Shown here: one piece after another, positions 54,424-58,897 of the stretch
Position numbering within the stretch: position 1 is the stretch's first letter
How the letters are laid out: every line of letters starts with the position of its first letter
NCBI GenBank assembly: GCA_028286885.1
Contig: JAQBQS010000016.1
Coordinates: 70,464-134,463, forward strand
DNA from: Patescibacteria group bacterium
GTDB lineage: Bacteria; Patescibacteriota; Minisyncoccia; Phycocordibacterales; UBA1006
Direction of reading: 5' to 3'
DNA: 64,000 bases
Program-made: the position numbers and the translations under genes
The notes under the pieces: generated by a model
The model's database searches: none
Seen by the model: only the letters and a program-made list of their open reading frames with translations
What the model was told of the DNA's origin: nothing

Positions 54424-54460
54424 GAAAGCGCGCGGGCCGAAGGCCCGCGCGCTTTTGCTT
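54424..54460 (+). terminator. strong terminator (12 bp GC stem)
   Basis: agcgcgcgggcc-gaa-ggcccgcgcgct followed by TTTT. Confidence 0.75.
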
Positions 54461-54461
54461 T

Positions 54462-54499
54462 AAAAATAAAAAAGCACTCTATAGTAGAGTGCTCATATT
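54462..54499 (-). terminator. terminator for minus-strand gene 54502-54789
   Basis: agcactcta-tag-tagagtgct with a minus-strand T-run. Confidence 0.55.
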
Positions 54500-54501
54500 T
54501 T

Positions 54502-54789
54502 TTAATCGACCAGGATATGCATCTGATGCCCAGGCTCGAAGATGATACTTTGCTCGACCAACGGTTTCCCGTCGAGTATCGGCAGTGTGATCCAGTAAAC
54601 AGGAAATGCGTCGGCATTTTTTTCTTTTGCCTCCTTGATTGCATTCCAGATCCCTTCGCAGAAGAGATCAGCAATTTTCGTTTCTTCTTTGATGGTTGCC
54701 TTCTCGGTAAGTCCGGTGATTGTTAGGATGTCATGCTCCAACGTTCCGGCAGCGCGGTCATTGTAAACTCGCGTCTTGAATTGGAACAC
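54502..54789 (-). CDS. hypothetical protein (GTG start; 171 nt of upstream in-frame open sequence lacks an ATG)
   Basis: Track ORF begins at GTG. The in-frame open region extends to 54963 with AGGAG at 54955-54959. Confidence 0.35.
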   Translation of the reverse strand: MFQFKTRVYNDRAAGTLEHDILTITGLTEKATIKEETKIADLFCEGIWNAIKEAKEKNADAFPVYWITLPILDGKPLVEQSIIFEPGHQMHILVD

Positions 54790-55047
54790 GTGCTCGCTTG
54801 TGCCGTCAGTGATCCATCCGAGCCCTTCCCACCAATTTTGAGAACGGGTACGGTCGCCGCTCTCCGAATTTCCGTCTTCCCAGGTACGGTTTCTCGGCGA
54901 AGCCTGGACTCTTAATTTGAAGTGATCGCCTGTTATTTCGTGCTCTTTAAAGTCTCCTATGATTTATATGTTTTTGTTAAAAGTAAAAGAGAAGTCTCGT
55001 TTCTTATGGTACTCGGCACAATTTGATTGTCAATGTATGCTATTTTG

Positions 55048-55076
55048 TTGACGAAATCGCAGTTGCCTGATATACA
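55048..55076 (+). promoter_or_regulatory. promoter of paralog 1
   Basis: TTGACG-17 nt-TATACA. Confidence 0.5.
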
Positions 55077-55116
55077 GTCTGGGAAAATACCATTCTAAAA
55101 TATAAATAGAAATAGC

Positions 55117-55614
55117 ATGTTAGACATAAAAAACGAATTCACTGAATTAATTTCAGGAAGCGAGGAAATAATCATCGACGAGTGTAGGGGTTCTGATATA
55201 CTCGAGAATACGGAAGGCCTTTTTCACATCAACGAAGAAAGCTTCCGCAAGTTCAAACTGAAGCTTGCAGACGAAATCAGTCCGAACATTCCTACGGATA
55301 AAATATCTGCCGAAGTTTATCAAAGAAAAAAAGACGCAACGCTTCTGCAAATGTTCGGCTCGTTCGGTACGGATATCAGCACTCTTTGCATGAGCTGGAA
55401 ACAGATAAAAATATTCTGCAAGAAGCATCCAATGTGGCTCTGCGGCGGGGGATTCGGAACTCTTTTTATAACCAAAATCAATGGCGAGTATGCGGTTGCA
55501 TCGCTCAACCTCGTGCCTTCCATAGGGCTGCGCATGTCCGCTTTCCCGCTAGAAGAAAAGTATGTTTTTTCCTGGGGATTCCAGCATTTGGTTGTTCCTA
55601 GGTTGTCTTCTTGA
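55117..55614 (+). CDS. paralog 1 of a novel ~160 aa family (165 aa)
   Basis: Shares EEIIIDEC.GS at the N-terminus, LC..Q.QI..FCEK.P in the middle, LFLFK, and a C-terminal PRLSS/PKLSS with the next three genes. Confidence 0.7.
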   Translation: MLDIKNEFTELISGSEEIIIDECRGSDILENTEGLFHINEESFRKFKLKLADEISPNIPTDKISAEVYQRKKDATLLQMFGSFGTDISTLCMSWKQIKIFCKKHPMWLCGGGFGTLFITKINGEYAVASLNLVPSIGLRMSAFPLEEKYVFSWGFQHLVVPRLSS

Positions 55615-55648
55615 AAAACTAAATCTCGTCCGTAAGGCGAGATTATTC

Positions 55649-55677
55649 TTGACTAAAATTCTTTTAAGATGTATATA
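55649..55677 (+). promoter_or_regulatory. promoter of paralog 2
   Basis: TTGACT-17 nt-TATATA. Confidence 0.55.
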
Positions 55678-55716
55678 GATTTGGAAATTAACATTGCAAA
55701 AATTAAATAAACCAAG

Positions 55717-56199
55717 ATGACAGCTGCTGAAAATTTATTTGAACTCATTTCTCTGGATAAGGAGATCGTCATCGATGCATGCGACGGTTCGCAAACCTTG
55801 GCAGACGCCACAACCTTATTCGTCGCAACCGATTCGGTCGTCAAAAAATGCAGGTTCAACAAGATCAGGCCAACCGGACCGACTTCCGTTGACATTTACA
55901 AAATACCTGAGAAGGGTTCGCTTGCGGGCGCTTCGATCATAGATTATTTTGAAAATGATCTGGACAAATTGTGTCTGACCCAAAACCAGATAAGGAGCTT
56001 CTGTGAGAAGAGCGCCGCGAAGTGGATAAAGGGAGATAAATTCGAGTTTTTCTTCCTGTTTAAGATAGGCGGGCGAATACACGCCGCCCATGTTGCCACG
56101 TATACTTCTGGCCTAAGGGTCTTTGCCTACAGCATGGATTTCGTAATTGCCTGGTTCGACCGTGGCAACCGGGGTTTGGTAGTTCCCAAACTACTTTAA
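55717..56199 (+). CDS. paralog 2 (160 aa)
   Basis: EIVIDACDGSQ...LCLTQNQIRSFCEK...FFFLFK...VVPKLL. Confidence 0.7.
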   Translation: MTAAENLFELISLDKEIVIDACDGSQTLADATTLFVATDSVVKKCRFNKIRPTGPTSVDIYKIPEKGSLAGASIIDYFENDLDKLCLTQNQIRSFCEKSAAKWIKGDKFEFFFLFKIGGRIHAAHVATYTSGLRVFAYSMDFVIAWFDRGNRGLVVPKLL

Positions 56200-56208
56200 A
56201 ATCTATTC

Positions 56209-56238
56209 AAAGCCCTGATCCACAATCAGGGCTTTTTC
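56209..56238 (+). terminator. terminator of paralog 2
   Basis: agccctga-tccacaa-tcagggct followed by TTTTT. Confidence 0.7.
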
Positions 56239-56239
56239 A

Positions 56240-56268
56240 TTGACAAGAATGCTTTTGCGTGATATACA
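56240..56268 (+). promoter_or_regulatory. promoter of paralog 3
   Basis: TTGACA-17 nt-TATACA (TGaTATACA extended -10). Confidence 0.55.
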
Positions 56269-56309
56269 GTTATTGAAATAACAATTGTAAAATTTAAAAT
56301 ATAACCAAG

Positions 56310-56807
56310 ATGACAGACATAATAATCCGAGAGTCCATGGTACGTCTTTCAGAAGACAAGAAACTTATCATCGACGCATGTAGCGGAGAAAGGACTTTTG
56401 CAAGTTCGCCTACTCTTTTCGGGTCACATGGAGCGGGATGGCCATTTAATGAAATGGATTATCCAAGCGCTCCTACTCCTGAAATCGAAATCGAGCGATA
56501 TCAGATGATAAAGCCAGATTGTGTAACGGATATATTCAAATCTTTTAGTTCCGATCTGGAAAAGTTATGCCTCAATCAGGATCAAATAATCACATTCTGC
56601 GAAAAGCATCCCGAAGAAATTTCCAGAGAGTCTTCAATGACGACATTTTTCCTCTTTAAAAGAAAAGAGAACGTCATGGTCGGGGTAATGTTTGGGGATG
56701 GAGCCATGGATAACCGCCATTATGTTGTTGAGGGCCAGGATCTGCCTACTGGGGTACATAGTATTAAATATTTCCGCTCAATACTTATCCCTAAACTGTC
56801 TTCTTGA
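56310..56807 (+). CDS. paralog 3 (165 aa)
   Basis: KLIIDACSGER...LCLNQDQIITFCEKHP...FFLFK...IPKLSS. Confidence 0.7.
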   Translation: MTDIIIRESMVRLSEDKKLIIDACSGERTFASSPTLFGSHGAGWPFNEMDYPSAPTPEIEIERYQMIKPDCVTDIFKSFSSDLEKLCLNQDQIITFCEKHPEEISRESSMTTFFLFKRKENVMVGVMFGDGAMDNRHYVVEGQDLPTGVHSIKYFRSILIPKLSS

Positions 56808-56817
56808 AAAACATTCA

Positions 56818-56848
56818 AAGGCCCGATCTTATAGATCGGGCCTTTTTC
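56818..56848 (+). terminator. terminator of paralog 3
   Basis: gcccgatc-ttata-gatcgggc followed by TTTTT. Confidence 0.7.
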
Positions 56849-56877
56849 TTGACTAAAATATTTTTCTATTATATACA
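56849..56877 (+). promoter_or_regulatory. promoter of paralog 4
   Basis: TTGACT-17 nt-TATACA. Confidence 0.55.
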
Positions 56878-56917
56878 GATGGAGAAATAACTATTAAAAT
56901 ATAAATATATAACCAAG

Positions 56918-57415
56918 ATGGCAGCTGCAACAAACGAATTCCTGAAACTCATTTCAGGTGAACAAGAAATTATCATCGACGCATGTGATGGCACGAGAAG
57001 CATTGCGGACTCGGAAGAAATATTTACCAGGTTCCTAGATCCAAGTTTCAAAGATGCTTTTTTTGACAAAACCGGCAAAGAAACAAAAGAAATTTCATTG
57101 GAAATCAGCGAAATAACTAAAATGTCGACCTTACAGAAGATATTCCATTCGTTGGAGATTGATCCAGAAAACTTACGTCTTACTCAGCATCAGATAATCA
57201 ATTTTTGTGAGAAGTATCCTGATAAGTTTTTAATCAATGGAAAACCTACATTATTTCTTTTCAAAATGGGCAGTTCCGTGTGTGTAGCTAGTATCGCCCG
57301 GGATTCTTGTGGATTAAGGATTTATAGAAATGACCTTTATGGCGGCAATGTCGGTCCTGGACGTTATAATGTGATGCCTTCTTGGCGAATCGCAATTCCC
57401 AAACTGTCTTCTTGA
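56918..57415 (+). CDS. paralog 4 (165 aa)
   Basis: EIIIDACDGTR...LRLTQHQIINFCEKYP...LFLFK...IPKLSS. Confidence 0.7.
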   Translation: MAAATNEFLKLISGEQEIIIDACDGTRSIADSEEIFTRFLDPSFKDAFFDKTGKETKEISLEISEITKMSTLQKIFHSLEIDPENLRLTQHQIINFCEKYPDKFLINGKPTLFLFKMGSSVCVASIARDSCGLRIYRNDLYGGNVGPGRYNVMPSWRIAIPKLSS

Positions 57416-57423
57416 AACACATT

Positions 57424-57455
57424 CAAAGCCCTGATCACAGATCAGGGCTTTTTCT
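57424..57455 (+). terminator. terminator of paralog 4 (10 bp stem)
   Basis: agccctgatc-aca-gatcagggct followed by TTTTT; nearly identical to the paralog 2 terminator. Confidence 0.7.
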
Positions 57456-57489
57456 ATATAAATATGGATTTGTACTTGAATGTTCGGAA

Positions 57490-57529
57490 CCCTCTCCTTC
57501 CAGGAGAGGGTGGCTTCCGTCAGGAAGCC
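57490..57529 (+). other. two adjacent GC-rich hairpins without T-runs, upstream of the tuf promoter
   Basis: ccctctcc-ttcca-ggagaggg, then ggcttcc-gtca-ggaagcc. Confidence 0.35.
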
Positions 57530-57547
57530 GGGTGAGGTCTGGAATTC

Positions 57548-57576
57548 TTGACTTTATTTCCAATTTCGCGTAGGAT
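57548..57576 (+). promoter_or_regulatory. tuf promoter
   Basis: TTGACT-17 nt-TAGGAT; 118 nt leader. Confidence 0.5.
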
Positions 57577-57694
57577 ATGCGGGTTATTATTAAGTTAATC
57601 CGGGACACAGGTTATCGCCGGAACGATGCAACACTTGGCTGTTTTTTCAGCACGAGACGTCGTTTCGAGTAGTCTGTTCCCATCAATCAAACGT

Positions 57695-58897
57695 ATGGCA
57701 GCAGCTGAATTTGACCGATCAAAGCCACACGTAAACGTAGGAACCATTGGTCACGTCGACCATGGCAAGACTACGCTTACGGCGGCTATTTTGAGCGTCC
57801 TTAACCGAGAAGGCAACGGATATGGAGCCGTTACCAAGGGAATCAACGACATCGACAAGGCTCCCGAGGAAAAGGCACGAGGAATTACGATTTCATTGTC
57901 TCACTCTGAGTACTGGACACCGACGCGACACTACGCTCACATCGACGCCCCAGGACATGCCGACTACATCAAGAACATGATTACAGGTGCCGCTCAGATG
58001 GACGGTGCCGTACTCGTAGTAGCAGCAACAGACGGAGCGATGCCACAGACACGAGAGCACATTTTGCTCGCGCGACAGGTAAACGTTCCAAAGATGATTG
58101 TCTTCTTGAACAAGTGCGACATGGTTGATGACCCAGAAATGCTCGATCTCGTTGAGATGGAAATGCGAGAAATCTTGACCAAGAATGGTTACGACGGAGA
58201 CGCAACACCAATCATCCGAGGTTCAGGACTTAAGGCTTTGGAATCAGCTGACAACAGCGATCCTTACGCTCAGAAAGTCATGGAACTCGTTCGAGCATTG
58301 GACGAGTACATCCCAGTTCCAGAGCGAGAGCTCGACAAGCCATTCTTGATGCCAGTAGAGGACGTATTCTCGATCGAAGGACGAGGAACCGTCGTAACTG
58401 GAAAAATCGAGCAGGGAATCATCAAGGTAGGAGAGGAAATCGAAATTGTCGGTATCCACGACACCGTGAAGACAACGGTTACAGGAGTTGAAATGTTCAA
58501 CAAGTCGCTCCAGCAGGGACAGGCCGGTGACAACGCCGGAATTCTCCTCCGAGGAATCAAGAAGGAAGACGTTACCCGAGGGCAGGTTCTCTGCAAACCG
58601 GGATCAGTCAAGCCTCACACAGAGTTCGAGTGCGAGACCTACATCCTCAAGAAGGAGGAAGGAGGACGACACACGCCGTTCATCCAGGGTTACAAGCCTC
58701 AGTTCTACGTTCGAACAACGGACGTAACGGGAGAAGTAACGCTTCCAGAAGGAACAGCTATGGTTATGCCAGGCGACACGGTAACATTCAAGGTTAAACT
58801 CATGGCTCCAGTAGCTCTCGAGAACAACCAGCGATTCACCGTCCGAGAGGGAGGAAAGACAGTCGGTGCAGGTGTTGTTACCAAGATCATTGCTTAG
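57695..58897 (+). CDS. tuf: elongation factor Tu
   Basis: [32 protein letters not shown]...[22 protein letters not shown]...NKCD...; 400 aa. Confidence 0.93.

What the first reader, a model, noticed from the sequence alone, without database searches (positions are those of the whole stretch)
55048..57455. Array of four diverged tandem paralogs (~160 aa), each an autonomous promoter-gene-terminator module, immediately upstream of tuf
The four consecutive genes are 165, 160, 165 and 165 aa and share only ~25-35% identity. They conserve:
- an N-terminal L(I)S..(E/K)EI(I/V)IDAC(D/S)G
- a central (L/K)LCL(T/N)Q.QI..FCEK.P
- an LF(L/F)FK segment
- a near-invariant C-terminus (V/I)(V/I)PKLSS (PRLSS in paralog 1; PKLL in paralog 2).

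They lack signal peptides. Each has its own near-consensus promoter (TTGAC(T/A)-17-TATA(C/T)A), a conserved SD-less AT-rich leader ending ...ATAACCAAGATG, and its own hairpin terminator. The terminators of copies 2 and 4 are nearly identical.

Tandem arrays of rapidly diverging small cytoplasmic paralogs are typical of immunity, antitoxin or anti-effector repertoires. A strictly conserved C-terminal pentapeptide suggests a recognition tag, for example a protease or partner-binding degron. I do not recognise the family.
Basis: seen in the sequence. Interest (0 to 1): 0.8.

Follow-up and report, generated by a model that had tools for sequence, protein, structure and literature searches.

The report
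Orphaned retroelement-target lectin-like gene array
The four small tandem genes are real and belong to a large unnamed family of Patescibacteria binding proteins whose tips are rewritten by a mutagenic retroelement (DGR) in many relatives, but here no retroelement is in sight and the four copies look like long-detached, separately transcribed survivors.

Summary
Four tandem ORFs of 165, 160, 165 and 165 aa share 29-36% identity. Each follows a TTGAC-N18-TATAYA motif that occurs nowhere else in the 64 kb, and each is followed by a hairpin.

The family has no entry in Pfam, NCBIfam, PHROGs or PADLOC. It is nevertheless large, with about 1,900 clusters at 50% identity, and every hit that carries a meaningful organism name is from Patescibacteria.

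The window holds no reverse transcriptase, Avd or template repeat. The four variable-region equivalents are not alignable with each other at the DNA level. They still carry the NNY codon footprint of AAY-templated mutagenesis (29 of 35 codons against 52% elsewhere in the genes).

The "conserved C-terminal tag" is the family's last predicted β-strand. In DGR-linked relatives it coincides with the 3' boundary of the variable region.

Best reading: a DGR-detached array of stand-alone lectin-like binding proteins. The immunity, antitoxin and degron ideas are not supported.

The parts
55048..55076 (+). Promoter-like motif of copy 1 (TTGACG-17-TATACA)
   Evidence: A regex scan finds this motif only four times in the window, all in front of the array. 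Shuffled sequence gives 0.26. Aligned with the other three copies.
55117..55614 (+). Paralog p1 (165 aa; NCBI MDB4984804.1, JWM20_983)
   Evidence: ORF. Scores E=4.8e-30 against an HMM built only from genes at DGR-linked loci. Accession.
55489..55611 (+). p1 segment equivalent to the DGR variable region (YAVASLNLVPSIGLRMSAFPLEEKYVFSWGFQHLVVPRLSS)
   Evidence: Aligned to the family HMM with hmmalign. Seven of nine codons at the AAY-template columns end in C or T.
55622..55644 (+). Hairpin after p1 (weak terminator candidate, poor T-run)
   Evidence: RNAfold gives -13.0 kcal/mol for the 60 nt downstream of the stop.
55649..55677 (+). Promoter-like motif of copy 2 (TTGACT-17-TATATA)
55717..56199 (+). 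Paralog p2 (160 aa; JWM20_984)
   Evidence: ORF. E=5.3e-28 against the DGR-linked-only HMM.
56077..56193 (+). p2 variable-region equivalent
   Evidence: Eight of nine template-column codons are NNY.
56209..56235 (+). Terminator-like hairpin after p2 (AAAGCCCTGATC-CAC-AATCAGGGCTTT, then a T-run)
   Evidence: I1, D5. RNAfold gives -17.9 kcal/mol.
56240..56268 (+). Promoter-like motif of copy 3 (TTGACA-17-TATACA)
56310..56807 (+). Paralog p3 (165 aa; JWM20_985, called as 156 aa in NCBI)
   Evidence: ORF, NCBI length. E=1.5e-24 against the DGR-linked-only HMM. The HMM match stops before the variable region, so this is the most eroded copy.
56673..56804 (+). p3 variable-region equivalent (contains indels)
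   Evidence: Six of eight template-column codons are NNY.
56817..56845 (+). Terminator-like hairpin after p3
   Evidence: One search reports a 13-bp stem. RNAfold gives -21.8 kcal/mol.
56849..56877 (+). Promoter-like motif of copy 4 (TTGACT-17-TATACA)
56918..57415 (+). Paralog p4 (165 aa; MDB4984807.1, JWM20_986)
   Evidence: ORF. E=9.4e-40 against the DGR-linked-only HMM. AlphaFold2 model has mean pLDDT 86.
57278..57412 (+). p4 variable-region equivalent
   Evidence: Eight of nine template-column codons are NNY.
57425..57451 (+). Terminator-like hairpin after p4
   Evidence: One search reports a 12-bp stem followed by a T-run on the + strand. RNAfold gives -21.4 kcal/mol.

Best explanation
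The four genes are members of a large, uncurated Patescibacteria family of small single-domain proteins with a divergent C-type-lectin-like (CLec) fold.

**What the family does in relatives (shown).** In many relatives these proteins are the variable proteins of diversity-generating retroelements (DGRs). A template repeat (TR), bAvd and a reverse transcriptase lie just downstream. Adenine-specific mutagenic retrohoming rewrites about 9-12 codons in the last ~38 codons of the gene. These codons lie at alternating positions of a C-terminal β-hairpin and in the loop after it.

**The state of the array in this window (shown and inferred).** The array is detached from any DGR. No reverse transcriptase, Avd or TR lies within 55 kb upstream or 6.5 kb downstream. 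The four variable-region equivalents have diverged by substitutions at non-adenine positions and by indels. They retain a residual NNY-codon footprint from an AAY template.

**How it most likely works (inferred, not shown).** Each copy is transcribed from its own promoter and ended by its own hairpin. Each yields a soluble, signal-peptide-less ~18 kDa binding module. The four differ most on the former hypervariable face. Together they would supply a small hard-wired repertoire of binding specificities, in place of a repertoire generated by the retroelement. The ligand is unknown.

**The conserved ending.** (V/I)(V/I)P(K/R)L is the final predicted β-strand of the fold. It is homologous to the segment that forms the 3' boundary of the variable region (the IMH position) in DGR-linked relatives. 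It is not a degron.
For: **Family membership**
- An HMM built only from 35 genes at DGR-linked loci scores p1-p4 at E=1e-24 to 1e-40 over nearly their full length.
- The family has 1,914 representatives at 50% identity with E<=1e-3.
- All named hits are 'hypothetical protein' and carry no Pfam domain; every hit whose source names an organism is from Patescibacteria.

**DGR linkage of the family**
- L001 and L008 carry two tandem members followed by a TR, bAvd and RVT_1.
- Three-way repeats of 107-115 nt link the two variable regions and the TR. In L001, where the three copies were aligned, differences between them fall on template adenines.
- Across 30 TR-VR pairs, 469 of 589 mismatches fall on TR adenines, which make up 24% of TR bases.
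- A reverse transcriptase or Avd lies directly downstream in 24 of 62 genome loci and in 24 of 73 metagenome loci.

**Fold**
- Two independent AlphaFold2 models were made: p4 with pLDDT 86, and P0006 with core pLDDT above 92.

**Detachment in the window**
- tblastn and jackhmmer with DGR reverse transcriptase and Avd queries found nothing.
- blastn-short found no extra copy of any variable region.
- A DNA profile of 18 TRs detects variable regions in other loci that lack a DGR (E=1e-8 to 1e-15) but nothing in the window, where the best hit has E=1.2 and lies outside the array.

**Footprint of past mutagenesis**
- At the nine columns where 16 of 16 TRs have (nearly) always AAY, p1-p4 codons end in C or T in 29 of 35 cases. 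Elsewhere in the same genes the figure is 52%.
- Fisher's test gives p=2.3e-4 and a column permutation gives p=0.0012.
- Only 1 of 35 residues at these columns is K, E, Q, M or W.
- Genes at DGR-linked loci show 97% NNY and genes at loci without a DGR show 89%.

**Signs that the copies are functional**
- All four ORFs are intact and of equal length.
- The promoter, leader and terminator DNA is more conserved than synonymous sites.

**Published context**
- Patescibacteria (CPR, clade 2) DGR targets are reported to lack recognisable transmembrane segments or domains (PMC8144416).
- The smallest DGR targets are reported to be CLec folds alone (PMC5758913).
Against: - Only 64 kb of a 140.5-kb contig, and none of the rest of the MAG, could be searched. 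A DGR elsewhere in the genome is therefore not excluded.
- The NNY footprint rests on 35 codons and on an alignment that is uncertain in p3. Restricted to four-fold-degenerate codons it is only a trend: 10 of 13 against 127 of 229. Selection for typical binding-site residues (Y, S, N, D, F, H) could produce part of it.
- No ligand, localisation or expression data exist.
- The lower GC of p3 and p4 (GC3 of 0.36-0.40 against about 0.5-0.6 in neighbouring genes) would also fit relaxed selection.
Confidence: 0.68

Rival explanations
1. The four genes are still active, remote targets of a DGR encoded elsewhere in this genome. On this reading the conserved 3' DNA module (the last codons plus the hairpin) serves as the IMH-like site and cruciform recognition site.
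For: - DGRs can act in trans on remote targets (PMC5758913, section 'Non-adjacent target genes').
- The last ~5 codons and the 3' flank are conserved at the DNA level well beyond the rest of the CDS: 88% between p3 and p4 over 42 nt, against 49% for the CDS.
- Both Ser codons are TCT in p1, p3 and p4.
- A hairpin follows each copy, as it does after many DGR-linked relatives.
- The NNY footprint is present.
Against: - The four variable-region equivalents are not alignable with each other at the DNA level and differ by indels. At least four different TRs would be needed.
- No TR-like sequence occurs in the 64 kb.
- The footprint is weaker here (83%) than in genes at DGR-linked loci (97%).
- CPR DGRs are reported to have mostly a single target gene, and remote targets (>100 kb from the RT) are reported only for non-CPR lineages (PMC5758913).
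- In one genome where both could be compared (L064 and L042), the remote copy differs from the TR at non-adenine positions as often as at adenines.
Confidence: 0.1
2. This is the first reader's view: a repertoire of cytoplasmic immunity, antitoxin or anti-effector proteins, with the conserved C-terminal pentapeptide acting as a degron or partner-binding tag.
For: - The arrangement is a tandem array of fast-diverging small proteins without signal peptides.
- The ending is conserved.
Against: - PADLOC, Pfam and NCBIfam gave no hits.
- No toxin or effector neighbour is present here or in 135 related loci.
- The ending is a predicted β-strand inside the fold, in a high-confidence part of both models.
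- The same ending is explained by the variable-region boundary in DGR-linked relatives.
- p2 lacks the 'SS' of the ending.
Confidence: 0.07
3. The genes are decaying relics: former DGR targets left without function after the retroelement was lost and now drifting.
For: - The copies lie on long branches. Median identity to other family members is 32%, against 40% among the other members themselves.
- p3 has indels and loses the HMM match in its variable region.
- GC3 is low in p3 and p4.
- Reverse transcriptases are fragmented in several related loci, which shows that DGR decay does happen.
Against: - All four frames are intact and of nearly identical length.
- The core motifs are conserved.
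- The predicted fold is confident.
- The promoter, leader and terminator modules are more conserved than synonymous sites, which argues for continued selection on expression.
Confidence: 0.15

Closest known systems
Patescibacteria (CPR) 'clade 2' DGR target proteins (Roux et al. 2021, PMC8144416; Paul et al. 2017, cited there but not readable here)
   Same: - They share sequence homology with the four genes here.
- They are small proteins with no signal peptide, no transmembrane segment and no known domain.
- Their variable region is C-terminal.
- They are cellular rather than viral: only 2 hits in 2.9 million viral contigs.
   Different: - The window copies have no adjacent TR, Avd or reverse transcriptase.
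- They lack the ~50-aa helical N-terminal extension that most members carry.
- Their variable-region DNA no longer resembles any TR.
- They form a four-gene array in which each gene has its own promoter and terminator.
TvpA (Treponema denticola variable protein 1, PDB 2Y3C) and Mtd (Bordetella phage BPP-1), the structurally characterised CLec-fold DGR variable proteins
   Same: - The variable residues sit in the C-terminal part of the fold.
   Different: - TvpA is a lipoprotein and Mtd is a phage tail-fibre tip. The proteins here have no export signal and no appended domain.
Multi-target DGR loci, for example the eight tandem targets of the Stenotrophomonas DGR and the remote targets of the Treponema DGR (Wu et al. 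2018, PMC5758913)
   Same: Several paralogous target genes lie in tandem or are scattered in one genome.
   Different: In those cases every target's variable region matches a single TR with adenine-only differences. Here the four C-termini cannot be derived from one TR.

Membership tests
Sequence family of Patescibacteria DGR variable proteins (uncurated, no Pfam entry) | Significant full-length homology to members whose variable region is verified against a TR | tested here: met
   [not shown]
Functional DGR target (variable protein currently diversified) | A cognate template repeat matching the variable region | tested here: not met
   No TR-like sequence occurs in the 64-kb window by blastn-short, six-frame HMM search or an nhmmer TR profile. 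The rest of the genome was not available.
Functional DGR target (variable protein currently diversified) | A DGR reverse transcriptase (with or without Avd) in the same locus or genome | tested here: not met
   tblastn and jackhmmer with reverse transcriptase and Avd queries from L001 and L008 found nothing in the window. The remaining ~76 kb of the contig and the other contigs could not be searched.
Functional DGR target (variable protein currently diversified) | TR-VR differences confined to template adenines | not testable with these tools
   No TR is available for this genome. In relatives, 469 of 589 mismatches fall on adenines. The indirect NNY footprint is present in the window copies: 29 of 35 codons, p=2.3e-4 by Fisher's test and p=0.0012 by permutation.
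C-type-lectin-like (CLec) fold, the usual scaffold of DGR variable proteins | Structural similarity to CTLD, FGE-type, Mtd or TvpA folds | tested here: inconclusive
   [not shown]
Anti-phage defence, toxin-antitoxin or immunity protein families | A match to a known defence or TA family, or a conserved toxin or effector neighbour | tested here: not met
   p1-p4 gave no PADLOC, Pfam or NCBIfam match. The neighbours are ComEC, a SIMPL protein and tuf. No partner gene recurs across the related loci.

The most novel reading that the evidence does not exclude
The array is not a fossil but a set of retrohoming-competent cassettes. On this reading the DNA-level conservation of the last five codons plus the downstream hairpin (55592-55644, 56185-56235, 56785-56845, 57393-57451) reflects an IMH-like site and a cruciform target-recognition module. 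A DGR encoded elsewhere in the genome would use that module in trans, with several TRs or with template switching, to rewrite four differently scaffolded binding faces. This would be a multi-template, remote-acting DGR in a CPR bacterium.
Probability: 0.08. Interest if true: 0.7.

Novelty: new variant of a known kind. Interest (0 to 1): 0.45.

Why it matters
CPR bacteria are among the richest carriers of DGRs. What their small, signal-less target proteins do is an openly stated unknown (PMC8144416).

This window shows the same protein family living without its retroelement. It appears as four separately promoted, strongly diverged copies that still bear the codon signature of past adenine mutagenesis. 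If this reading is right, three things follow.

- It gives a natural example of what happens to a hypervariable binding protein once the diversifier is lost. Diversity is kept by paralog number rather than by retrohoming.
- It supplies four fixed, expressible variants of the scaffold for structural and ligand-fishing work. Population heterogeneity in the variable region would not complicate that work.
- It provides a simple diagnostic, NNY bias at the template-adenine columns, for recognising former DGR targets in genomes that no longer have a DGR.

This is not an immunity or degron system.

Tried and rejected
- **Curated families.** Pfam, NCBIfam, PHROGs and PADLOC gave nothing significant for p1-p4. 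A profile search against PDB sequences also gave nothing.
- **Foldseek.** The PDB search returned only noise. The AFDB50 library was not available.
- **DGR parts in the window.** None were found in searches for a reverse transcriptase, Avd or TR.
- **RNA genes.** An Rfam scan and a tRNA scan of the whole window found nothing.
- **The rest of the contig.** An attempt to reach the rest of the 140.5-kb NCBI contig through the look-up of encoding contigs returned only a 3.3-kb Logan contig. It is identical to window 54444-57754 with no variant sites.
- **Species-representative genomes.** No contig of the window's length appears among the 62 loci returned by the scan of species-representative genomes, so its genome is probably not in that collection.
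- **The last protein search.** I considered spending it on a reverse transcriptase query to look for a JWM20-tagged RT. I rejected this because only the best 120 hits are listed and CPR DGR reverse transcriptases are likely far more numerous than that, so a negative result would mean nothing.
- **A catalytic cysteine.** I rejected the idea that the D-A-C-D-G motif holds a catalytic cysteine, because many members have L or other residues at that position.
- **Phage origin.** I rejected this because only 2 of 2.9 million viral contigs carry a relative.
- **SD-less leader.** This is not an array-specific feature, because it holds genome-wide.
- **Paul et al. 2017.** The paper (PMC5436926) could not be read.
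Full report
**1. The observation**

- Four + strand ORFs lie at 55117-55614 (p1, 165 aa), 55717-56199 (p2, 160 aa), 56310-56807 (p3, 165 aa) and 56918-57415 (p4, 165 aa).
- They align over their whole length at 29-36% identity.
- The promoter-like pattern TTGAC-N18-TATAYA occurs exactly four times in the 64-kb window on either strand. Each copy lies about 40 nt upstream of one of the four start codons, and shuffles give 0.26. The stricter sigma-70 scanner omitted these sites because their -10 hexamer ends in A.
- A hairpin starts 7-10 nt after each stop codon. RNAfold gives -13 to -22 kcal/mol, and the p3 and p4 hairpins are listed as terminator-like. The p2 and p4 hairpins are near-identical.
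- The flanking non-coding DNA is 60-73% identical upstream and 53-78% identical downstream. The coding DNA is 45-53% identical, and 31-41% at third positions.
- Two corrections are needed. The ending is PRLSS in p1 and PKLL in p2, so the pentapeptide is not strictly conserved. The lack of a Shine-Dalgarno sequence is genome-wide rather than array-specific.

**2. Where the window comes from**

- The four proteins are NCBI 'hypothetical proteins' JWM20_983-986 (MDB4984804.1 to MDB4984807.1). They belong to a Patescibacteria-group MAG, on a 140,526-nt contig.
- Neighbours are ComEC and a SIMPL-domain protein upstream. Downstream lie tuf and then genes that, judged from their ORF translations, are rpsJ, rplC and rplD.

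**3. What family it is**

- Pfam, NCBIfam, PHROGs, PADLOC and PDB sequences give nothing.
- The family is nevertheless large. A profile of the four finds 1,914 cluster representatives at 50% identity with E<=1e-3, of which 1,200 have E<=1e-10.
- All named hits are hypothetical proteins with no Pfam domain; every hit whose source names an organism is from Patescibacteria.
- Most members are about 215 aa, because they carry a variable helical N-terminal extension of about 50 aa. The window copies lack it.
- Only 2 relatives occur in 2.9 million viral contigs, so the family is cellular.

**4. The key finding: the family is a DGR target**

- Homolog P0006 lies in tandem with a second member. A bAvd gene and an RVT_1 reverse transcriptase follow directly.
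- A 115-nt repeat occurs three times in that locus: at the 3' end of each member and once in the non-coding gap before Avd.
- The alignment shows the non-coding copy to be rich in AAC and AAT codons. Within the repeat, the differences between the copies fall on its adenines. This is the signature of a DGR template repeat (TR) and its variable regions (VR).
- The same layout recurs in L008.
- A reverse transcriptase or Avd lies directly downstream in 24 of 62 loci from species-representative genomes and in 24 of 73 JGI metagenome loci.
- Over 30 TR-VR pairs, 469 of 589 mismatches are at TR adenines, which make up 24% of TR bases.
- Sixteen TRs share AAY codons at nine fixed columns. These alternate with invariant Val residues: V-N-V-N-V-N-(S/P)-D-G-L-N-V-N-V-N-R-L-E-N-D-N-V-W-N, ending R-V-V-P-Q-L.
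- An HMM built only from the 35 genes at DGR-linked loci scores p1-p4 at E=1e-24 to 1e-40. Membership therefore does not depend on circular inclusion of the window genes.

**5. Fold**

- AlphaFold2 models of p4 (19 sequences, pLDDT 86) and P0006 (126 sequences, core pLDDT above 92) are confident.
- Foldseek against the PDB is uninformative.
- I read this as a divergent CLec-like fold, consistent with DGR variable proteins, but not proven.
- The variable codons fall on two consecutive β-strands (172-181 and 184-191 in P0006) and the following loop. The ending V-V-(S)-P is the last β-strand (205-209 in P0006, 157-161 in p4).
- The alternation of invariant Val with template Asn implies one hypervariable, solvent-facing sheet surface. 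This is an inference.

**6. The state of the array in this window**

- No reverse transcriptase, Avd or TR is present in the 64 kb.
- A DNA profile of 18 TRs readily finds the variable regions of members in other loci without a DGR: L005, L006, L012 and L041 at E=1e-8 to 1e-15. In the window its best hit has E=1.2 and lies outside the array.
- The four variable-region equivalents (55489-55611, 56077-56193, 56673-56804, 57278-57412) share 16-33% residues. They differ by indels, so no single TR could serve them.
- At the nine template-adenine columns their codons end in C or T in 29 of 35 cases (83%). Elsewhere in the same genes the figure is 52% (Fisher p=2.3e-4, column permutation p=0.0012).
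- Only 1 of 35 residues at these columns is of the NNR-only set K, E, Q, M or W.
- The corresponding NNY values are 97% for genes at DGR-linked loci and 89% for genes at other loci without a DGR.
- This is the expected scar of AAY-templated adenine mutagenesis, partly eroded. A caveat applies: among four-fold-degenerate codons alone it is only a trend, 10 of 13 against 127 of 229.
- In the one genome where a DGR locus and a second locus could be compared (L064 and L042), the second copy differs from the TR at non-adenines as often as at adenines. Detached paralogs therefore do exist beside active DGRs.
- Several related loci carry fragmented reverse transcriptases, which shows that DGR decay happens in this group.

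**7. Interpretation**

- *Shown.* The genes belong to the DGR-target family. There is no DGR in the window. The variable-region DNA has diverged. An NNY footprint remains. The regulatory flanks are conserved.
- *Inferred.* The four are former DGR targets that now persist as independently transcribed, stand-alone lectin-like binding modules. They differ most on the former hypervariable face, which makes a small hard-wired repertoire.
- *Unknown.* The ligand and the cellular location are not known. Roux et al. state that it remains to be established whether CPR targets are genuinely non-membrane proteins (PMC8144416).
- The conserved C-terminus is best explained by structure together with descent from the variable-region 3' boundary, not by a degron.
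- The DNA-level conservation of the last codons and the hairpin remains partly unexplained: p3 against p4 is 88% over 42 nt, and both Ser codons are TCT in three copies. It could reflect terminator constraint, gene conversion, or a residual IMH-and-hairpin recognition module.

**8. Rivals**

| Reading | Confidence | Main point |
|---|---|---|
| Active remote targets of an unseen DGR | about 0.1 | Would need several TRs |
| Decaying relics | about 0.15 | Argued against by intact frames and conserved promoters |
| Immunity, antitoxin or degron | about 0.07 | No support |

**9. Novelty**

- The family corresponds to the already surveyed but functionally uncharacterised CPR DGR targets.
- A four-gene, DGR-less array with autonomous promoter and terminator modules, carrying a codon-level scar of past retrohoming, is a new variant of that known kind.
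- Arrays without an adjacent DGR also occur elsewhere. L006 has three copies, and its sister assembly L007 has two. L012 has four domains and L041 has three copies.
- In at least one copy of each of those arrays the variable region still looks TR-like. Of the loci tested, the window array is the most diverged from the TR profile.
- Interest is moderate at 0.45.

Noticed in passing
window 54502-54960 (- strand): An open frame of about 150 codons points away from the array. It has no ATG, GTG or TTG start until the GTG at 54789, and the frame opens right after a TAA as ATC-ATA-GGA. It has no Pfam match. It may use a non-canonical start, or it may be a 95-aa gene.
   Followed up: partly
window 55048-57455: The array is a low-GC patch, 40.4% against 48.8% for the window. 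GC3 is 0.40 in p3 and 0.36 in p4, against about 0.5-0.6 in ComEC, the SIMPL gene, tuf and rpoB. p1 and p2 are intermediate.
   Followed up: partly
window 57548-57700: tuf has its own TTGACT-17-TAGGAT promoter-like site at 57548-57576. The listed ORF starts at 57626, but the conserved EF-Tu N-terminus ([26 protein letters not shown]) begins at about 57696, so the true start is probably the later ATG.
   Followed up: no
window, gene starts throughout (e.g. 20723, 32729, 58982, 59431): None of the 16 gene starts inspected outside the array has an obvious Shine-Dalgarno sequence. Some have a TATAAT-like box only about 10 nt upstream of the ATG (for example 32729), which suggests leaderless or very short-leader mRNAs in this organism.
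   Followed up: no
window 54425-54455 and 54463-54503: Two back-to-back palindromes lie after the SIMPL gene. One is a perfect 14-bp GC-rich inverted repeat (AAAGCGCGCGGGCC/GGCCCGCGCGCTTT). They probably form a bidirectional terminator between convergent genes. The Logan contig L010 breaks at 54444, inside the first palindrome.
   Followed up: no
L001 7898-7948 and 8663-8713, and the 3' flanks of many DGR-linked members (L008, L018, L023, L025, L035, L036 and others): A conserved non-coding element (...TTGTCCCTYTGTCCCTCGGATCCTTTGAACTTAGT...) follows the stop codon of DGR-linked family genes across different genomes, often next to or inside a hairpin. It may be the DGR target-recognition or terminator element. 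The window copies have a different hairpin (AAAGCCCTGATC...).
   Followed up: partly
P0020 (560 aa), P0021 (476 aa), P0022 (381 aa); L012 8711-10486: Some relatives are single polypeptides with two or three tandem repeats of the whole domain. In L012 only the last repeat still matches the TR profile. The upstream repeats of P0020-P0022 look degenerate in their variable-region-like segments by eye.
   Followed up: partly
L028, L034, L046, L048, L049, L054, L062: The DGR reverse transcriptases next to family members are split into two or three ORF fragments, which suggests pseudogenisation or sequencing frameshifts. In L046 the TR has few adenines (15 of 126) and differs from its variable region at only 3 positions, which looks like a silenced DGR.
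   Followed up: no
L006 versus L007: Two assemblies of nearly the same locus (gyrA ... rpmF) carry three and two family copies respectively. Two of the three L006 copies are identical over the compared 3' part, so this is either real copy-number variation or collapse of a repeat during assembly.
   Followed up: no
window 1-64000: There are no tRNA genes and no Rfam family above the gathering threshold anywhere in 64 kb, even though the window contains rpoB, rpoC and ribosomal-protein operons.
   Followed up: no
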